DNA of 64,000 nt from Mytilus edulis (Eukaryota): the NCBI RefSeq assembly GCF_963676685.1, contig NC_092345.1, positions 22,072,001-22,136,000 on the forward strand, in the 5' to 3' direction. The first letter of the stretch is position 1. Each line of letters starts with the position of its first letter. Position numbers and translations under genes: made by a program. Of the stretch, positions 7,888 to 51,053 are shown piece after piece. The notes below the pieces were generated by a model. The model was not told where the DNA came from. It saw nothing but the letters and a program-made list of their open reading frames with translations, and searched no databases.

Positions 7888-10800
7888 ATGTCATGTCCTG
7901 TAACAATAGAACTTAGGTGAATGCATGATGGTTTTAACTAGAGACATTATACTTATATTAGTCATGAATATATCTAGCCCTTCTGTTTAGAATATATATT
8001 TTCACTTTTTTTCATAAGTAACATTGTGCCTATGCTTTAGTCCAAACAGGGACAGTCTATACTGAAGTCCCCGGTCCAAAATTATGATTATTACATCTTT
8101 TAAGGCTATTTTTATTTTTGCCTTGACATCTGTGAGGAGGGGGAACAGGACCTATTTTTTGGGACGTCAGGATTGGTTGTTTATAACCCTCTTGCTGCCG
8201 GAGGGACACATATGTCCACGGTTAAATTTATGCAAGCTTCACTTCATTGCTGTATCTCTTCAATTAAAAGACCAAAGATTAAAAAGTGCAATGTTTTTCT
8301 CCAATGGGTCCCAAATGTAACAGTCATTATGTCGTGACGTCATATATCGAACTACATCATTGTTTGGCATGTTACATCACTAGCGTCGAGCTGTGGTATT
8401 TTCTGGCACATGAAATGCAACCTTGAAAAACGGTCGGCAGCAAGAGGGTTAAGCTGGGGATTTCGGGATGGATCCTTTTGGGATCCCACAATTCTTTTTT
8501 CGAATGTAGGGATTTAAGCCTGGGATTTCATGATCAGGACCCTCTGATATCTATTTGGGGAATGTCATCTATTGTCCATGTCAATCAATACAGCTCACTT
8601 CAATTAAGTGAAGTTCTCAAACCTCTTTCCCAACTTAGTTTATTTTGGCACCTTCTGGAGGAGTGAAAAAAGTGCACTGCAAAATCCTGTTAATTTTTTA
8701 TTTTTCTAAAACAATAAACAAATTTTAAATTTATTTATCTAGGGCATACTATGCCTTAAAAATTCATCAGATGCTCAGGTTCATCTGTACTCAGAGTAAA
8801 TTTTGAGGTGAAAATGCAGCCAAAGGGTTCACATGAACCTTAAACAGGTTGGAAACAACCCCCAAATTATATACGGGATATCCCTCAATTGTTTAAATAA
8901 GACAGTGTCCCTCAGACAAGGTGTCATTTTGCTGTATTAGAAAAGAAAAAGAAAAACTAGGCTTTTTTTTTACTTAAAAAGGGGAAAGTTCATTACATTT
9001 TTACAACTTTTCTAGAAGAGGCCATGGGTTCCCATTATTTTGAATAATAAAGAAGATTTGAAGCCTGTGAATATTGCAAATGTTTTGATAATTAAATACC
9101 AGACATTTGCCAGATAGATGTATAGTTCTTGGGGGAAAGTTTCTGCAAATAATATAAATATGTGCCCTTTTATACTAAGAAGTTTTTTTTACAACAAAAA
9201 CAAACACTTGAAAATAACCCCTGATATTAAAGGGATAGTCATCATATTGAGTGGTATGCTCCCAACCTGGTAAAAGAGAGGCCAAAGTTACCAAAGGGAC
9301 ATTCAAACTCTTTAAGTCGAAAATAAACTGACAACAGATTCTGGCCAAAATTGAAAAAGACCAACAGACAAACAACAGTACTTCACAAAACACAACATAG
9401 AAAACTTAAGGCAGTAACACAACTTAACCCCACCAAAAACTTGGGTTATCTGAAAATTTTGCATTTGTGCAAAGTATATTTTTTGTAACTTATTTGAGCG
9501 TATTAAAGTATTTCTTCGTTTAGCTCTTGAAAAAAACTTTGATTAAAAAAATGTTAATATGAAACCAGAAGCAACACTGTATACCGGTAGGAATATTTTG
9601 ACCTCTCATATCTTGAAAATTTACAAGATTGTAAATGTAAAAAGTTAACTTTTGGAGAAGATGAAAGGGAGATAATTCAAACCTTAATAAGAAAATCTAA
9701 ATTTTCCAAATTTACTTATAAATACAAGTAAATATTACATGACTTGAAGTATTACCGCTGGCTGAGAAGAGAAATCAAAATATGTCCAAAAAATACATAC
9801 ATGTAGCTAGTTATTTCCTACCACAACCATTTCAAATCAGTATCATTTCCTTCCATTAATTTTGAGACCCCTATACAGATGACATTTTAATCTTAAGTCT
9901 AATATTTAATTGATCTTTTGCAACAACAAATGCTTTAAATAGAATATTTATACTTTTAATAAAAAAAATTAATGAACATGTAATTGTTTAGATGTGTGGA
10001 TGTACATGTCAGATTAATAACGGCTGGATTACAACTCTGATGATCCTTTGATTAATAAGAGTAACTGTCCTTTATAATTTTGACAGGACAAAAGGCTTTT
10101 TATATTTAAAAAACTAATTTCATTTCTACATGTGTATTTTCAGTGGAGGAGCAGAACTTTTGTTTGATAACAAGAAGAAACTTGAAGTTGTATTACCTGA
10201 AAATTCAAATCCATGTAAGTTTTATGTTTGTTAATAGATAGAAAGGGTCAATATTGACATGAATACAAGTTTTTCTTGACATTTAGGAACAACAAATGGA
10301 ATTATTTGATACTTGGTTAAAAAACCTAACTGTATATATAGTCTTCCAAAAAATACCAAACATAACAAAATATGAAACATTTAAAAAAGACAATCTGATA
10401 TATCATTAAACAATTGAATAAAACAAACATGAAAGACAGTAAAAAGGCAATCTGATATATGATAAAACAATTGAATAAAACAAACATGAAAGACAGTAAA
10501 AAGACAATCTGATATATGATAAAACAATTGAATAAAACAAACATGAAAGACAGTAAAAAGACAATCTGATATATGATAAAACAATTGAATAAAACAAACA
10601 TGAAAGACAGTAAAAAGACAATCTTATATATCATAAAACAATTGAATAAAACAAACATGAAAGACAGTAAAAAGACAATCTGATATATGATAAAACAATT
10701 GAATAAAATACAAACATGAAAGACAGTAAAAGGACAATCTGATATATGATAAAATAATTGAATAAAAAAAACATGAAAGACAGTAAAAAGGCAATCTGAT

Positions 10801-13800
10801 ATATCATAAAACAATTGAATAAAACAAACATGAAAGACAGTAAAAAGACAATCTGATATATGATAAAACAATTGAATAAAATACAAACATGAGAGACAGT
10901 AAAAAGACAATCTGATATATGATAAAACAATTGAATAAAACAAACATGAAAGACAGTAAAAAGACAATCTGATATATGATAAAACAATTGAATAAAACAA
11001 ACATGAGAGACAGTAAAAAGACAATCTGATATATGATAAAACAATTGAATAAAACAAACATGAAAGACAGTAAAAAGACAATCTAATATATGATAAAACA
11101 ATTGAATAAAAAAAACATGAAAGACAGTAAAAAGACAATCTGATATATGATAAAACAATTGAATAAAACAAACATGAAAGACAGTAAAAAGACAATATGA
11201 TATATGATAAAACAATTGAATAAAACAAACATGAAAGACAGTAAAAAGACAATCTGATATATGATAAAACAATTGAATAAAACAAACATGAAAGACAGTA
11301 AAAAGACAATCTGATATATGATAAAACAATTGAATAAAACAAACATGAAAGACAGTAAAAAGACAATCTGATATATGATAAAACAATAATCTGATATATG
11401 ATAAAACAATTGAATAAAACAAACATGAAAGACAGTAAAAAGACAATCTGATATATGATAAAACAATTGAATAAAACAAACATGAAAGACAGTAAAAAGA
11501 CAATCTGATATATGATAAAACAATTGAATAAAACAAACATGAAAGACAGTAAAAAGACAATCTGATATATGATAAAACAATTGAATAAAACAAACATGAA
11601 AGACAGTAAAAAGACAATCTGATATATGATAAAACAATTGAATAAAACAAACATGAAAGACAGTAAAAAGACAATCTGATATATGATAAAACAATTGAAT
11701 AAAACAAACATGAAAGACAGTAAAAAGACAATCTGATATATGATAAAACAATTGAATAAAACAAACATGAAAGACAGTAAAAAGACAATCTGATATATGA
11801 TAAAACAATTGAATAAAACAAACATGAAAGACAGTAAAAAGACAATCTGATATATGATAAAACAATTGAATAAAACAAACATGAAAGACAGTAAAAAGAC
11901 AATCTGATATATGATACATGTAAAACAATTGAATAAAACAAACATGAAAGACAGTAAAAAGACAATCTGATATATGATACATGTAAAACAATTGAATAAA
12001 ACAAACATGAAAGACAGTAAAAAGACAATCTGATATATGATAAAACAATTGAATAAAACAAACATGAAAGACAGTAAAAAGACAATCTGATATATGATAA
12101 AACAATTGAATAAAACAAACATGAGAGACAGTAAAAAGACAATCTGATATATGATAAAACAATTGAATAAAACGAACATGAAAGACAGTAAAAAGACAAT
12201 CTGATATATCATAAAACAATGGAATAAAACAAACATGAAAGACAGTAAAAAAACAATCACTGAATAAATGGCTCCTGGCATGGGACAGCCACGAAAAGAA
12301 TAACGAGAAAATGTGGCCTGAACCTGGAGAATAAGGGTACTGTATGTTAGTTAAGGTAAGAAATGTGGCCTTTCAACAGGTCATCAATGGACCTCTCATT
12401 AAGTTGTTGCATGGTTCTATCAGGAGCAGAGAGGGTGGCACCCTGTCTTCTCAAACCATCAAATTTTAAGTTTCCCATTCCTACAGAACTTGGACCCAAT
12501 AAAAAGAGCCTATTATCTTGGTGCAAAATGATTTTCTGTTTCATCTTTTCAGAAATTACACTTTTATTAGCTCACCTGGTCCGAAGGGCCAAGTGATCTT
12601 TTCCAATCACTTTGTGTCCGTCGTCATCTGTCGTCCGTCATCGTTTACTTTTACAAAAATCTTCTCCTCACTACTGGGCCAAATTAATTCAAAATCGGCC
12701 ACAATCATCATTTGGGTATTTAGTTTAAAAAATGTGTCAGGTGACCCGGCCAACCAACCAAGATGGCCGCCATGGCTAAAAATAGAACATAGGGGTAAAA
12801 TGCAGTTTTTGGCTTATAACTCAAAAACCAAAGCATTTAGAACAAATCTTAAAGTTTTAAAATTGTTTATCAGGTCAAGATCTATCTGCCCTGAAATTTT
12901 CAGATGAATCGGACAACCCGTTGTTGGGTTGCTGCCCCTGAATTGGTAATTTTAAGGAAATTTTACTGTTTTTGGTTATTATCTTGAATATTATTATAGA
13001 TAGAGATAAACTGTAAACAGCAATAATGTTCAGCAAAGTAAGATTTACAAATAAGTCAACATGACCGAAATGGTCAGTTGACCCTTTTAGGAGTTATTGC
13101 CCTTTATAGTCAATTTTTAACCATTTTTCGTAAATCTTAGTAGTCTTTTACAAAAATCTTCTCCTGAAACTATTCGGCCAAATTATTACAAACTTGAACA
13201 CAATCATCTTTTGGGTATTTAGTTTTAAAAATGTGTCCGGTGACCTGGCCATCCAAACAAGATGGCTGCAACAGCTAAAAATATAACATAGGGGTAACAT
13301 GCAGTTTTTGGATGATAACTCAAAAACCAAAGCATTTAGAGTAATCTGAATTGAGTAAAATTGTTTATCAGGTCAAGATCTATCTGCCCTGAAATTTTCA
13401 GATGAATCAGACAACCTGTTGTTGGGTTGCTGCCCCTGAATTGGTAATTTTAAGGAAATTTTGCTGTTTTTGGTTATTATCTTGAATACTATTATAGATA
13501 GAGATAAACTGTAAACAGCAATAGTGTTCAGCAAAGTAAGATTTACAAATAAGTCAACTTGACCGAAATGGTCAATTGACCCCCTAAGGAGTTATTGTCC
13601 TTTATAGTCAATTTTTAACAATTTTCATAAAATTTGTAAATTTTTACTAACATTTTCCACTGAAACTACTGGGGCAAGTTCATTATAGATAGAGAAAGTT
13701 GTAAGCAGCAAGAATGTTCAGTAAAGTAAGATGTACAAACACATCACTATCACCAAAACACAATTTTTTCATGAATCCATCTGCTTCCTTTGTTTAAAAT

Positions 13801-40935: not shown

Positions 40936-41122
40936 AACAAATATATACTTACTGTCACAATGAAGGATCCATGTTTAATAAGACAAATATATACTTACTG
41001 TCACAATGAAGGATCCATGTTTAATAAGACAAATATATACTTACTGTCACAATGAAGGATCCATGTTTAATAAGACAAATATATATACTTACTGTCACAA
41101 TGAAGGATCAATGTTTAATAAG
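40936..41122. repeat. ~46-bp tandem repeat, 4 copies
   Basis: Unit ACAAATATATACTTACTGTCACAATGAAGGATCCATGTTTAATAAG. Confidence 0.9.
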
Positions 41123-43188: not shown

Positions 43189-46100
43189 ATGTTTACATTA
43201 CCAACCCAGGAAGTATACACTACACCTGTTCCTGTACCAAAGGATCCAGCAGGAAACATCAAAGATGATTGTAGATTATGGATTGGAAATTTGGATACTA
43301 GACTGACAGAGTAATATAATATAAGACATACATAGAAATAAACAAGAAAATTCTAGAACTATTCTCAAATTTGTGAAAAAATATAATTATTTTGGTATCT
43401 TTCACCATGTTATGAAACTTTAATTGGAAACAATTTGTATATTAAGGGGCCATAACTCACAATTAATCTGTAAAATAAAAATGTATACACAATTAGTAAA
43501 TTAGTTTGCTGTTACATCATACCAAACTATTATCCAACCATGAACCCTTTTAGGTGTAAGACCACCAAATCATGGTACATGTAGGTCACACCAGGTTGTA
43601 TATATGAAAATAGGTCAAAAAAAATATTGAATTTGACAGTTGTAGGTAATTAATTCTACATTTTACTGCAGTAAAACGTTTCTGTTTCATCATGTTCATA
43701 AACCTGTGTCTTGGTTATATCAAAGCACCACTATTTTTTCATTTGGGGTTTCTATAGAATATTTTGTAAACTTGAGGTTACATGGTTACTAAAACTTGTA
43801 CACAGGTTAAATAAGGGGAGATATTTGATTGGTTAACTTCCAGTGATGGTTATTTTCTTATATGCAATGAAATGTTTTGTGAAATTTTTATACGACGGCA
43901 AAAATTGAAAATTTTTTGGTAGTATATTCAATTTGGTATAACGTTCGTGCCGTCGTCATTGTCCAAAGACATTTGGTTTTCGCACTATAACTTTAGTATA
44001 AGTAAATAGAAATCTATCAAATTTAAACACAAGGTTTATGACCTCAAAAGGAAGGTTGGGATTAATTTTGGAAGTTTTGGTCCCAACAGTTTAGGAATTA
44101 GGGGCCAAAAAAAGGTCCCAAATAAGCATTTTTCTTGGTATTTGCACAATAACTTTAGTATAAGTAAATAGAAATCTATTAAATATAACACACGGTTTAT
44201 GACCACAATGGAAGGTTGGGATTGATTTTGGAAGTTTTGGTTCCAACAGTTTAGGAATTAGGGACCAAAAGGGACCAAAATTAAACTTTGTTTGATTTCA
44301 GTAAAAATTGAATTATTGGGGTTCTTTGATATGCCGAATCTAACTGTGTATGTAGTTTCTTAATTTTTGGTCCTGTTTTCAAATTGGTCGACTTTAAGGT
44401 CTAAAGGGTCCAAAATTAAACTTAGTTTGATTTTAACAAACATTGAATTCTTGAGGTTCTTTGATATGCTGAATCTAAACATGTACTTAGATTTTTTATT
44501 ATGGGCCCAGTTTTCAAGTTGGTTCAAATCAGGATCCAAAATTATTATATTAAGTATTGTGCAATAGCAAGAAATTTTCAATTGCACAGTATTCAGCAAT
44601 AGCAAGAAATCTTCAATTGCACAGTATTGTGCAATAGCAAGAAATTTTCAATTGCACAGTATTGCACAATAGCAAGAAATCTTCAATTGCACAGTATTGT
44701 GCAATAGCAAATTGGTCCAAATCGGGGTCCAAAATTAAACTTTGTTTGATTTCAACAAAAAATTAAACCATTGGGGTTCTTTGATACATGTATGCTGAAT
44801 TAAACATGTATTAAGATTTTTGCTTATGGGGCCAGTTTTCAAGTTGGTCCAAATCGGGGTCCAAAATTAAACTTTGTTTGATACATGTATCAACAAAAAT
44901 TGAATCTTTGGGGTTCATTGATATGCTGAATCTAAACATGTATTTAGATTTTTGATTATAGGCCCAGTTTTCAGGTTGGTCCAAATCGGGGTCCAAAATT
45001 AAATTTTGTTTGATTTCATCAAAAATTGAATTCTTGGGGTTCTTTGATATGATGAATCTAATCATGTATTTAGATTTTGGATATTGGACCATAAAAGGTA
45101 AATGTCCAATTTAAAGTTATTAAGTTTAAGTTCTTAGACCTCATTCATTCTGTGTCAGAAACCTATGTTGTGTCCACTATTTAATCACAATCCAAATTCA
45201 GAGCTGTATCAAGCTTGAATGTTGTGTCCATACCTGCCCCAACTGTTCAGGGTTTGAACTCTGCGGTTGTATTAAGCTGCGCCCTGCGGAGCATCTTGTT
45301 TTCTTTGTAGCTAAGTTTAAGGGATATTTAAGTAGACAAGAATTTGGGGAACAGTTTACATTGAGGCAAGGTCATACAAAGAACTTTATTGTTTATAATG
45401 GTTTCATAATGAACAGACATTACACATACATGTATATTCTTTCAGGTACACATTGTTAAAGCTTCTACAAAAGTTTGGTGAATTGAAAAGATTTGATTTT
45501 CTTCTTAACAAACTGGGGCCAGAAAAAGGAAAACCCAGAGGATACTGTTTTGTTAGTTATGAAAATAGAAAGGTGAGAATAAGTTTGTGTCCAACAGTGT
45601 TCATTTGACTTTGACCTTAATGTCTTGCATCATTGATAATTATAATGTGGTGCATTTAGTAAGACCTTGTTCTTTAAAACTTTCAGCATAAAATTTAATC
45701 AATGCATGTATTCCTAAAGCAGGAAAGACTTCAGCATGTGTAGTGTTAAGCTAACTTAAGTATTCACAATTTATAAGAGTTATTAATATGGTTATTTGTT
45801 TTATTAACATTGAAATTGAATAATTGAAATCTAAGTCTGCAGGAATTTGTTACAATTTGAGCTTAAGGTGGTACCCAACACTTGCACTAAAATTAATTTG
45901 GCTTGTTTAATTTTCATAAAACTTTGTCAAAGTACTTACTTTGACCCTTTACAAAAATATAAAATTTTAAAAATTTGAACCAACCGTTTTGTCAGAAAAA
46001 TTACACTGGTTATATAGCAGTTTGACAAACACCAATGTTTATCATTGAGAAGCTTTATATTCCCTTTACAACACAACGTAATCAAAACGTTTAGCTGACT

Positions 46101-49100
46101 TTACAGAGTTATCTGTAGTGTTAGGTACCACCTTAATATACAAATACTACATTGCCTTCACTCATCGGAATTTGTACAAAATTAAATTGAATTTGGTATT
46201 ACAGAAAATTAAAACAGAATTGAACAGAACTTTTTTGTAACATGATCTTTGTTTCTAAACAATTATAGGATGCTGAGAAGGCCAAGAGGAATATGCATGG
46301 TAAACTGGCACTGTCCAAAAGACTAGTAGTAAAATGGGCACATGCAGAAACAGACGTAATTATTTTACTTCAGTGAATGCCATTGTATTACTGTGGATTT
46401 ATTTACTTCTATTTTATGTATTATAATCTCCTTTTAAGTTTATTTGTCCCACAGGCCACTTAAATTACCGTACAGTGGGTTATTTTCGAGGGGTGCTTAT
46501 TTTCACTTATTTTGGCAGGGGTGTTTATTTACACTTATTTTGGCAGGTAAGGGAATTATTATTCACCACAATTTCTTTTAATTTTCAGAGTGAACAGCAA
46601 GACATAAGAGTACCATGTAGTACTACAGGTGTATATCCTACTGGCAGGTAAGAAATCAAGACATAAGAGTACCATGTAGCACTACAGGTGTATATCCTAC
46701 TGGCAGGTAAGAAAACAAGACATAAGAGTACCATGTAGCACTACAGGTGTATATCCTACTGGCAGGTAAGAAAACAAGACATAAGAGTACCATGTAGCAC
46801 TACAGGTGTATATCCTACTGGCAGGTAAGAAAACAAGACATAAGAGTACCATGTAGCACTACAGGTGTATATCCTACTGGCAGGTAAGAAAACAAGACAT
46901 AAGAGTATCATGTAGCACTACAGGTGTATATCCTACTGGCAGGTAAGAAAACAAGACATAAGAGTACCATGTAGCACTACAGGTGTATATCCTACTGGCA
47001 GGTAAGAAAACAAGACATAAGAGTACCATGTAGCACTACAGGTGTATATCCTACTGGCAGGTAAGAAAACAAGACATAAGAGTACCATGTAGCACTACAG
47101 GTGTATATCCTACTGGCAGGTAAGAAATCAAGACATAAGAGTACCATGTAGCACTACAGGTGTATATCCTACTGGCAGGTAAGAAAACAAGACATAAGAG
47201 TACCATGTAGCACTACAGGTGTATATCCTACTGGCAGGTAAGAAAACAAGACATAAGAGTACCATGTAGCACTTCAGGTGTATATCCTACTGGCAGGTAA
47301 GAAAACAAGACATAAGAGTACCATGTAGCACTACAGGTGTATATCCTACTGGCAGGTAAGAAAGCAAGACATAAGAGTACCATGTAGCACTACAGGTGTA
47401 TATCCTACTGGCAGGTAAGAAAGCAAGACATAAGAGTACCATGTAGCACTACAGGTGTATATCCTACTGGCAGGTAAGAAAACAAGACATAAGAGTACCA
47501 TGTAGCACTACAGGTGTATATCCTACTGGCAGGTAAGAAAACAAGACATAAGAGTACCATGTAGCACTACAGGTGTATATCCTACTGGCAGGTAAGAAAA
47601 CAAGACATAAGAGTACCATGTAGCACTACAGGTGTATATCCTACTGGCAGGTAAGAAAGCAAGACATAAGAGTACCATGTAGCACTACAGGTGTATATCC
47701 TACTGGCAGGTAAGAAATCAAGACATAAGAGTACCATGTAGCACTACAGGTGTATATCCTACTGGCAGGTAAGAAAGCAAGACATAAGAGTACCATGTAG
47801 CACTACAGGTGTATATCCTACTGGCAGGTAAGAAATCAAGACATAAGAGTACCATGTAGCACTACAGGTGTATATCCTACTGGCAGGTAAGAAAACAAGA
47901 CATAAGAGTACCATGTAGCACTACAGGTGTATATCCTACTGGCAGGTAAGAAAGCAAGACATAAGAGTACCATGTAGCACTACAGGTGTATATCCTACTG
48001 GCAGGTAAGAAATCAAGACATAAGAGTACCATGTAGCACTACAGGTGTATATCCTACTGGCAGGTAAGAAAACAAGACATAAGAGTACCATGTAGCACTA
48101 CAGGTGTATATCCTACTGGCAGGTAAGAAAGCAAGACATAAGAGTACCATGTAGCACTACAGGTGTATATCCTACTGGCAGGTAAGAAATCAAGACATAA
48201 GAGTACCATGTAGCACTACAGGTGTATATCCTACTGGCAGGTAAGAAAGCAAGACATAAGAGTACCATGTAGCACTACAGGTGTATATCCTACTGGCAGG
48301 TAAGAAATCAAGACATAAGAGTACCATGTAGCACTACAGGTGTATATCCTACTGGCAGGTAAGAAATCAAGACATAAGAGTACCATGTAGCACTACAGGT
48401 GTATATCCTACTGGCAGGTAAGAAATCAAGACATAAGAGTACCATGTAGCACTACAGGTGTATATCCTACTGGCAGGTAAGAAAGCAAGACATAAGAGTA
48501 CCATGTAGCACTACAGGTGTATATCCTACTGGCAGGTAAGAAATCAAGACATAAGAGTACCATGTAGCACTACAGGTGTATATCCTACTGGCAGGTAAGA
48601 AAGCAAGACATAAGAGTACCATGTAGCACTACAGGTGTATATCCTACTGGCAGGTAAGAAAACAAGACATAAGAGTACCATGTAGCACTACAGGTGTATA
48701 TCCTACTGGCAGGTAAGAAATCAAGACATAAGAGTACCATGTAGTACTACAGGTGTATATCCTACTGGCAGGTAAGAAAACAAGACATAAGAGTACCATG
48801 TAGCACTACAGGTGTATATCCTACTGGCAGGTAAGAAAACAAGACATAAGAGTACCATGTAGCACTACAGGTGTATATCCTACTGGCAGGTAAGAAATCA
48901 AGACATAAGAGTACCATGTAGCACTACAGGTGTATATCCTACTGGCAGGTAAGAAAGCAAGACATAAGAGTACCATGTAGCACTACAGGTGTATATCCTA
49001 CTGGCAGGTAAGAAAACAAGACATAAGAGTACCATGTAGCACTACAGGTGTATATCCTACTGGCAGGTAAGAAAACAAGACATAAGAGTACCATGTAGCA

Positions 49101-50228
49101 CTACAGGTGTATATCCTACTGGCAGGTAAGAAAACAAGACATAAGAGTACCATGTAGCACTACAGGTGTATATCCTACTGGCAGGTAAGAAAACAAGACA
49201 TAAGAGTACCATGTAGCACTACAGGTGTATATCCTACTGGCAGGTAAGAAAACAAGACATAAGAGTACCATGTAGCACTACAGGTGTATATCCTACTGGC
49301 AGGTAAGAAATCTTATATATCAAACCATCACCTAACATGCATCCCAAAAAATTAGCACAGAATTAAATTCTGAATATCCTGTACAGAGTCAAATTACTAC
49401 CAATCTTTGGATAAATGAATAGTTAAAGGTCTCCTTTTAAAATATGTGTGATAATCAGTTACCATCATGAATGAGAAAAGAATATTGAGGTCCTCCTCTT
49501 TTTGAATTATTGCTAGTAGAAAGGGAGAACTGAGGGTTGTGGGGTGTTGCTCTTTTCAAATTCTTTAGCTGATAGTTGTTGAAATTTTTCTGTTATCATC
49601 ACTGAGGTGGTTCTTTTAAAATTAATTTCCTCACCATGATTTGTCAAAGATGAAAATTGTTTCCGGCTCAGCGTTTTAGAAACTTTGGAGACTCCAAGTT
49701 TGGGTATTCCTGAAAAATTGTAGCTGATACAATGAAAGTGTTTAATATGTATATATGTATTAACATGACTTCAATGTAAGTGTTAATATACACCTATAGC
49801 AGATCGTTCAAAATTCTTACAAATTAGTACTTTGTTTTATCAAACCAAACTGTTCAACTGACAAGGCATTTTAACCATATGCTTTAGAAAACCATAGTCA
49901 ACTCATCAAAAAACAAGATGATAAATTAAAGCATTCTTACAATCCTATAGTGCTTTAAAAGCATAATAACCATGATAACTTCAAAGCTTAAAAAACATTA
50001 GGTGAGTAAATCAAACTTTTCCAGACATCATATTTCTTTCTTTTTTTTCTTTTCAGCACTGATAGTCAGATAAGAGCCATAGAAGACAAGTTAAGGAAAA
50101 TGGAAGAATCCTCCTCAGAATTCACAATCTCTACAAAACCTGTAGCCCAACCAGGAAGTAGTCAATTATATCAAATGAACGCTGCCAAACAAGAACAAAT
50201 CAAGAAGCCATACAGTCGTAAAAAGTGA
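43189..50228 (+). CDS. RBM18: RNA-binding motif protein 18 (single RRM; 188 aa)
   Basis: Exons 43189-43310, 45446-45572, 46269-46355, 46589-46647, 50057-50228 (567 nt, phases consistent). Contains [30 protein letters not shown]...[38 protein letters not shown] and KPYSRKK*. The acceptor TTTCAG|ACTATG just before the ATG implies an upstream non-coding exon. Confidence 0.93.
43885..45300 (+). mobile_element. Helentron/HINE-like element, family B, in an RBM18 intron
   Basis: TTTTTATACGACGGCAAAAA start and GCGGTTGTATTAAGCTGCGCCCTGCGGAGCATCTTGTT end; same internal units as 29214-31198 plus a ~36-bp GCAATAGCAAGAAAT..TCAATTGCACAGTATT sub-array at about 44555-44710. Confidence 0.82.
45867..46132. 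mobile_element. Kolobok-like MITE (266 bp)
   Basis: TTAA | GGTGGTACCCAACACT ... AGTGTTAGGTACCACC | TTAA. Confidence 0.82.
46598..49310 (+). repeat. 59-bp minisatellite, 46 copies, derived from the 3' end of RBM18 coding exon 4 plus its splice donor
   Basis: Unit CAAGACATAAGAGTACCATGTAGCACTACAGGTGTATATCCTACTGGCAG|GTAAGAAA(A/T/G); the first unit overlaps the real exon 46589-46647. Confidence 0.97.
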
Positions 50229-51053
50229 TCTCATCATGGTATTTTGAAAAAAACAAAATCAAACTTGGTTGCAAAGTTGATGGTATGCTACCATACATGG
50301 AATTGTTCCAGTATCAATGGTCAATGATCATTTGTTGTCCCAAGGAAGCTGTGTTGTACTGCAAAGAAGAAATGTACACCGATAAGGAGGACTAGAAATT
50401 TTAAAACATTAACTGTGAAATATTTAAAAGATTGTTTAGTGTAAAATTTCACATTTAAGGCAATGCATTGTGTCTTATTTTAGATAAAGATTAAAAGATT
50501 ATAGGATTCTTGTAATCTTTAAAACTCATTTGGAAATAGAAATGTTGTGTGATAGTTTATGAGACAACTCTTCACAAGAGACCAAATGACACAGAAATTT
50601 TATAACTATTCAACAATGAGCAAGCCCGTACAGCATAGTCAGCTACAAAATCCCCTGCAATTGAAATCTGTTTGTCATTGTTGCCACCCTGTTGAATGAG
50701 AATTCCACTATAGTGTAAAAGAGTTTCCCGTTGAGAAAAATGAGGAATCCCATCTACTCTTTTTATTCTACTTGTAATGTCCAATCTTTTTTATGAAGCC
50801 ATACAGATCAATCTTAGCTCAACACAGAGTTTTTAGACAGTTTATCATATAAATTTTTCATTATTTATTGCAAAAACCAACCAAAACAAATTAGTTCAAT
50901 TTTTTTTTTTTTTACCAGGTAATTCAAGCAATGACAGTATGTCACCATTTAGGAATGACAATTTTGGGATAATGTAGATTATTTGAATATCCATTATAAT
51001 TCTTTTCATGATTGCAGTCAAATGACACTTTTGTAGTTCTTGGATTGCTGATA

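What the first reader, a model, noticed from the sequence alone, without database searches (positions are those of the whole stretch)
46589..49310. 46 tandem copies of an RBM18 exon end plus its splice donor
Seen: the last 50 nt of coding exon 4 and the first 9 nt of the intron (GTAAGAAA[A/T/G]) are amplified as a 59-bp unit 46 times, giving 46 identical GGCAG|GTAAGA donors over 2.7 kb. Only the first keeps the frame into the last exon. Reading past it gives GGC AGG TAA, so use of any downstream donor puts a premature stop upstream of a junction. Inference: either exon definition picks the first of 46 identical sites very reliably, or array length tunes productive versus NMD-targeted RBM18 mRNA. 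The array could also act as a U1 sink or as recursive AG|GT stepping points. It is a natural test of 5' splice-site competition.
Basis: partly seen in the sequence, partly recalled or inferred. Interest (0 to 1): 0.7.

Follow-up and report, generated by a model that had tools for sequence, protein, structure and literature searches.

The report
Splice-donor minisatellite in mussel RBM18
In a mussel RNA-binding-protein gene, the end of one exon and its splice signal are repeated 46 times in a row; the repeat is real, the normally spliced RNA is made from the first signal, and it is likely a harmless example of a repeat type already known from human, lancelet and chicken genes and common in this genome.

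Summary
Confirmed: 46 x 59-bp units at 46598-49311 carry the last 50 nt of RBM18 coding exon 4 plus an intact CAG|GTAAGAAA donor; any later donor meets a stop at codon 133. It is not an assembly artefact: two short-read DNA assemblies hold the unit at about 45 times single-haplotype depth. It is present in runs of two organism labels and absent in two others. RNA: 3 of 3 informative raw reads and one spliced contig show the donor-1 form. The class is known (human F7, IFI6, CBS; lancelet 'mirages'; chicken 'exon stuttering'), and the same genome has longer arrays behind an M1-peptidase exon (at least 58 copies) and a Ski2 exon (64 copies). The scan has noted this kind before on other DNA, in this genome too. 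One loose end: one RNA assembly holds the repeat junction 5-16 times deeper than the spliced mRNA, with no contigs on introns 2-3, so some far-downstream donor use or retention is not excluded. Length-tuned NMD, a U1 sink and recursive splicing have no support. Ordinary; low interest.

The parts
43189..43310 (+). RBM18 coding exon 1 (ATG to donor)
45446..45572 (+). RBM18 coding exon 2 (RRM)
   Evidence: Pfam RRM_1 E 2.2e-05; 98% to P0001; GT..AG joint to exon 3 in X7
46269..46355 (+). RBM18 coding exon 3
   Evidence: joints 45570-46267 and 46355-46589 in X7 contig; loose-end letters in X24
46589..46647 (+). RBM18 coding exon 4 (59 nt), ending at donor 1, the only donor that gives full-length protein
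46598..49311 (+). minisatellite, 46 x 59 bp: last 50 nt of exon 4 + first 9 nt of intron 4; 46 intact donors
   Evidence: depth about 45x one haplotype in X15 and X16
46649..46651 (+). in-frame TAA read if donor 1 is passed (truncation at 132 aa)
   Evidence: sequence
49312..50056 (+). unique remainder of intron 4 with a strong acceptor (17 of 17 pyrimidines)
50057..50228 (+). RBM18 last coding exon (C-terminal 56 aa and stop)
   Evidence: 96% to P0001; covered by X24 RNA reads

Best explanation
The array is a tandem repeat of the RBM18 exon 4 / intron 4 boundary that likely arose by one local duplication and grew by slippage or unequal exchange, and the cell likely makes its working mRNA from the first donor while the 45 spare donors stay mostly idle. 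Shown: the anatomy, that the array is real, its absence from two related organism labels, and the donor-1 mRNA. Inferred: the origin (the borders share 1 nt of exact microhomology, and the acceptor CAG and donor CAG lie exactly one period apart); selection of the first donor because it is transcribed first and pairs across a 59-nt exon with a strong acceptor, while exons ending at donor 6 or later would exceed 350 nt; minor leakage to donors 2-3 giving a truncated 132-aa product; no selected function.
For: X24 raw RNA: 3 of 3 reads lying on the unit continue upstream into the exon 3 / exon 4 start, and bin depth 1.73 equals 3 reads starting at 49253, so no read covers the repeat junction. X7 contig (544 nt, depth 60.8) joins exons 2-3-4 by GT..AG, lies on 59 letters of exon 4 and does not continue into the intron. 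X19 and X20 DNA contigs cover exon 4 and the donor at single-copy depth and stop matching at 46657, so the gene exists without the array. The same build follows coding exons of unrelated genes in G000: 5 of 10 loci scanned had a family hit. The triple-donor pattern is not clearly more frequent than its backwards control, 892 vs 804 matches. Donor conservation in the array is what chance gives (p 0.51). In F7 minigenes only the most upstream of identical donors was used (PMC1557585); lancelet mirages did not interfere with regular splicing (PMC3087553).
Against: X7 holds repeat-junction contigs at summed depth 953 (3 contigs, so about 320-950) against 61 for the spliced mRNA and none on unique parts of introns 2-3, and holds only 0.27 of the words of 49253-50700, about what the last exon and UTR alone give. 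The X24 test is 3 reads from an animal whose exon 4 allele differs from all 46 units (49275 G>A), so it may not carry the array. The donor is strong (9 of 11 consensus matches), and in F7 perfect-consensus downstream sites did draw some splicing. IFI6 and CBS use two extra donors (as reported in PMC1557585).
Confidence: 0.7

Rival explanations
1. Leaky donors with a real cost: a sizeable share (roughly 10-35%) of transcripts from array alleles splice from far-downstream donors near the acceptor, giving a long repeat-filled exon with a premature stop, so carriers make less full-length RBM18.
For: X7 junction depth 5-16x the mRNA contig and 3x the DNA run X15, while a dispersed repeat in intron 2 is only 0.4-0.8x X15; X7 lacks most unique intron-4 words; the X7 mRNA contig ends exactly at the 31-mer that starts at 46621, the T/C site that tells exon 4 from most units, as a merge with a C-type unit spliced to the last exon would give. 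ABCA7 VNTR read-through with premature stops is described (PMC13747324, passages).
Against: Contig depths are not copy numbers and holes prove nothing (tool text). A C-type allele of exon 4 gives the same contig break, and X24 has such an allele. Longer arrays in those animals, low-level unspliced RNA or DNA, and the higher GC of the array (41% vs 29-31%) could give the same excess. No read over the repeat junction among the 15 laid in X24.
Confidence: 0.18
2. The array slows removal of intron 4 or ends in intronic polyadenylation, so array-containing RNA is unspliced or cut just behind the array rather than mis-spliced.
For: Same X7 excess; an ATTAAA lies at 49362, 50 nt behind the array.
Against: Retention at the needed level should leave unique intron-4 contigs, but the 14 best RNA-like holders hold only 0.26-0.29 of the words; the hexamer is common in this AT-rich DNA (9 AATAAA/ATTAAA in 6 kb); no intron reads in X24.
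Confidence: 0.08
3. The array is a selected regulatory device: a U1 sink, recursive-splicing ladder or length-tuned NMD switch.
For: All 46 donors are intact; the AG|GT word is present in each unit.
Against: Absent from two related organism labels; intact donors expected by chance; the AG at each donor has 9 of 17 upstream pyrimidines (6 T) against 10-17 (8-15 T) at the five true acceptors; no stable fold (z +1.47); many unrelated genes carry the same build.
Confidence: 0.03
4. Assembly artefact.
For: Very homogeneous units.
Against: Unit core depth 3254 vs 67-143 on flanks in X16, junction depth 320 vs about 7 per haplotype in X15, a cyclic 89-nt contig in X18 of another organism label; variants are patterned along the array, with non-A in 20 of 28 middle units vs 2 of 17 outer units. 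X15/X16 may be the source animal, which still tests the assembly against short reads.
Confidence: 0.01

Closest known systems
Human F7 intron 7 37-bp VNTR, with IFI6 (6-16), CBS intron 13, lamin B2 and PDGF intron 4 (PMC1557585; read: abstract, synopsis, introduction, parts 1, 2 and 4 of 6; the other genes only as that paper reports them)
   Same: First unit spans the exon-intron boundary, so an identical donor is repeated down the intron; most upstream site used, with two extra sites in IFI6 and CBS.
   Different: More copies (46 vs 5-26), unit mostly exonic (50 of 59 nt vs 4 of 37 in F7), stronger donor, a mollusc, and an immediate in-frame stop.
Lancelet 'mirage' minisatellites (Adh3, globins BflGb6/BflGb9; PMC3087553, passages read; supplements not opened)
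   Same: [quoted passage not shown]
   Different: Higher copy number and homogeneity here; only the donor side is repeated.
Chicken 'exon stuttering' (PMC12954441, passages read; supplements not opened)
   Same: A lateral part of a coding exon with its donor or acceptor is copied through the adjacent intron; 236 introns in 115 genes; strong length variation.
   Different: Concentrated on GC-rich dot chromosomes in chicken; here in an AT-rich mussel genome.
Human ABCA7 intron 18 VNTR (PMC13747324, passages read)
   Same: Repeat at a donor, read-through forms with premature stops, length proposed to affect expression: the model for the rival reading.
   Different: About 25-bp unit adjacent to the donor; that study could not correlate splicing with length; no such data exist here.

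Membership tests
Exon-boundary minisatellite (F7-type / mirage / exon stuttering) | Tandem unit of 10-160 bp whose first copy spans a real exon-intron boundary | tested here: met
   59-bp unit; exon 4 confirmed by homology and RNA joints
Exon-boundary minisatellite (F7-type / mirage / exon stuttering) | Splice signal repeated in the following intron | tested here: met
   46 of 46 units keep GGCAG|GTAAGAAA
Exon-boundary minisatellite (F7-type / mirage / exon stuttering) | Local origin (unit not dispersed) | tested here: met
   21 of 21 matches in G000 lie in the array itself; the tool scores only best candidates, so this is not an exhaustive search
Exon-boundary minisatellite (F7-type / mirage / exon stuttering) | Copy-number variation between haplotypes or individuals | tested here: inconclusive
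   present in X15, X16, X7 (label B) and X18 (label C), absent in X19 (A) and X20 (D); depth suggests about 45 junctions over both haplotypes in X15/X16; no allele lengths measured
Exon-boundary minisatellite (F7-type / mirage / exon stuttering) | Regular mRNA is still made from the authentic site | tested here: met
   X7 holds both the array and a donor-1 spliced contig; X24 3 of 3 reads; the share of each donor was not measurable
Poison-exon / NMD-coupled regulation | Conserved unproductive isoform that rises when NMD is blocked | not testable with these tools
   stop position fits, but the array is missing from two related labels and no NMD data were available
Recursive splice sites | AG|GT with a strong polypyrimidine tract in a very long intron | tested here: not met
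   9 of 17 pyrimidines before the AG, intron 3.4 kb; the defining features are recalled

The most novel reading that the evidence does not exclude
In carriers, a large minority of RBM18 transcripts skip the first donor and splice from donors deep in the array, so a presence/absence minisatellite segregating in wild mussels acts as a dosage allele; heterozygotes would then give a built-in, allele-resolved test of first-come versus acceptor-proximal donor choice in an invertebrate.
Probability: 0.18. Interest if true: 0.5.

Novelty: new member of a known kind. Interest (0 to 1): 0.17.

Why it matters
As it most likely stands it matters little: it adds one more locus to a described class and shows that a mussel gene tolerates 45 spare strong donors. 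It would matter more if the X7 signal reflects real far-downstream donor use, because reported cases use at most the next two sites and because array and array-free alleles appear to coexist among close relatives, which allows a within-animal comparison.

Tried and rejected
The exon 4 to exon 5 joint was not listed (under the 3-read threshold), so it rests on homology and on reads covering both exons. The second lay was swamped by a high-copy repeat at 45862-46131, so most loose ends and contig pieces near the array were cut from view; array absence in X19 rests on bin depths only, in X20 on bin depths and one 1500-nt contig. RNA folding of three units is no better than shuffles. Adjacent units do not share variants more than chance (p 0.32). 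Two acceptor rows were off by one base and were redone. Pfam found nothing on exons 1, 3 and 5 alone, nor on 5 of 10 other array loci scanned (only E >= 0.11 for L032); 6 of the 16 fetched loci were not scanned. The original IFI6 paper was not held. Paper searches found nothing on this locus: 'Mytilus, minisatellite, intron, splice' gave 2 unrelated listings; 'RBM18' gave 57 papers, 20 listed, none on its splicing by title or abstract start; a search for junction-dependent NMD in molluscs gave 4 listings that I did not open. The library lacks most subscription papers, so absence from print is not shown.

Full report
Observation. The window holds a 59-bp tandem array at 46598-49311: 46.0 copies, 98% matches, no indels. 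Each unit is the last 50 nt of a coding exon plus GTAAGAAA and one variable base (A, T or G); only four other point differences occur among 46 units, none in the donor. The gene has five coding exons with GT-AG introns and encodes 188 aa; exon 2 hits Pfam RRM_1 and the protein is 171/188 identical to a protein that its source names Mytilus californianus RBM18. So the window is from a Mytilus-type mussel (inference). Passing donor 1 reads GGC AGG TAA and gives 132 aa, losing the conserved C-terminal part; the stop is 55 nt before the junction for donor 2 and 114 nt or more for later donors.

Is it real? A search of the own genome with the exon 4 / unit 2 stretch gave 21 matches, all in the array (only best candidates are scored). 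In DNA contigs of label B the unit core stands at depth 3254 against 67 (one haplotype) and 143 (both) in X16, and the unit junction at 320 against about 7 per haplotype in X15: about 45 copies in each. The tool warns that such depth is no copy number and these runs may be the source animal, but the agreement with 45 junctions argues against an artefact and suggests that the second haplotype has few or no extra units (inference). X18 (label C) has an 89-nt contig that runs once round the unit, at about 9-12 times flank depth. X20 (label D) has a 1500-nt single-copy contig that matches exon 4 and ten intron bases to 46657 and then leaves; X19 (label A) shows the same bin depths. Of 5 DNA-like runs laid, 3 hold the array and 2 do not.

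Which donor is used? In raw RNA run X24 (about 19% read, 15 reads laid) 3 reads lie on the unit; all 3 continue upstream into the exon 3 / exon 4 start, none covers the repeat junction and none lies in the intron. Their allele differs from all 46 units, so this animal may not be a carrier. X21 gave no reads. X7, an RNA-like assembly of label B, holds a 544-nt contig at depth 60.8 with GT..AG joints exon 2-3 and 3-4 that covers the 59 letters of exon 4 and not the intron: the donor-1 form, in a sample that also holds the array. Against a clean picture, X7 has three contigs over the repeat junction at summed depth 953, no contigs on unique parts of introns 2-3, and only 0.27 of the words of 49253-50700, close to the 0.30 + 0.02 expected from last exon, UTR and unit alone. 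Its mRNA contig also ends exactly at the 31-mer starting at 46621, the T/C site that separates exon 4 from 44 of the 45 later units. Both would follow from splicing at far-downstream donors, but also from longer arrays, unspliced RNA or DNA below assembly depth, GC bias or a C-type exon allele.

How unusual? A pattern of three CAGGTAAG words 33-63 bp apart gives 892 matches in G000, and the same pattern read backwards 804 (matches, not loci). The first 100 listed fall in 15 loci on contig C1 and 1 on C2; I fetched all 16. Of 10 whose upstream frame I scanned, 5 have a family hit right up to the first donor: an L-type calcium-channel IQ exon (L031, about 6 copies), dihydropyrimidine dehydrogenase (L036, 4), an Hsp70-family exon (L039, 8.6; E 4e-4, under Pfam's cut-off), an M1 peptidase (L040, at least 58 copies) and Ski2 (L046, 64 copies, 44 with AGGTAAG). 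These loci were chosen for carrying donors, so this shows recurrence, not enrichment. The RBM18 array is therefore neither unique nor the longest in its own genome. Earlier notes of this scan describe the same build in this genome and in many others; I used them as leads to two papers, which I checked.

Mechanism. Shown: anatomy, reality, patchy distribution, donor-1 mRNA. Inferred: one duplication of 59 bp across the boundary (1 nt exact microhomology; acceptor CAG and donor CAG lie one period apart), then growth by slippage or unequal exchange, with T/G variants concentrated in the middle (20 of 28 vs 2 of 17). Donor 1 is likely chosen because it emerges first and defines a short exon with a good acceptor (13 of 17 pyrimidines); donors 2-5 would give exons of 118-295 nt and are the likeliest leaks, later ones 354-2714 nt. 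In F7 minigenes only the most upstream functional site among identical ones was used, skipping rose with distance, and only perfect-consensus sites drew splicing away (PMC1557585). Nothing points to function: intact donors are expected by chance (p 0.51), the unit does not fold better than shuffles, and its AG lacks a pyrimidine tract.

Comparison and verdict. This is a member of the exon-boundary minisatellites: human F7, IFI6, CBS, lamin B2 and PDGF, lancelet 'mirages' and chicken 'exon stuttering'. It differs in copy number, in its mostly exonic unit and in the taxon. I found no paper on this locus, within a library that lacks most subscription journals; supplements of the cited papers were not opened. 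New member of a known kind; interest 0.17.

Noticed in passing
L040 = G000:C1:103122500-103127500 and L046 = G000:C2:8225000-8231000: Longer donor-spanning arrays behind an M1 peptidase exon (at least 58 x 52 bp) and a Ski2 N-terminal exon (64 x 52 bp, some copies with a changed base before the GT).
   Followed up: partly
L031, L036, L039, L038, L032 (G000:C1): Shorter arrays of the same build behind exons of an L-type calcium channel, dihydropyrimidine dehydrogenase, an Hsp70-family gene, an unnamed 86-codon frame and a transmembrane exon (21 copies).
   Followed up: partly
L035 (G000:C1:59363000-59365000): Two nested donor-spanning arrays (152-bp x 3 and 59-bp x 12); in the 59-bp array only 3 copies keep AGGTAAG, a possible case of spare donors decaying.
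   Followed up: no
window 45862-46131: A very high-copy short dispersed repeat in RBM18 intron 2, absent from X19 and X20, whose contigs jump from 45861 to 46132: an insertion polymorphism.
   Followed up: partly
window 46589-46647: The repeat period (59) equals the length of exon 4, so the acceptor CAG and donor CAG are in register; not so at L031, L036 or L039. The exon also encodes 4 more residues than the M. californianus protein.
   Followed up: partly
window 46480-46553: A degenerate 28-bp repeat in intron 3 ends in a pyrimidine-rich AG followed by GTAAG, 42 nt before the exon 4 acceptor; looks like a recursive site but would leave too short an intron; part of it is a dispersed repeat by depth.
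   Followed up: no
window 10384-12258 and 40937-41122: Other minisatellites in the window (57 bp x about 33; 46 bp x 4), not examined for exon overlap.
   Followed up: no
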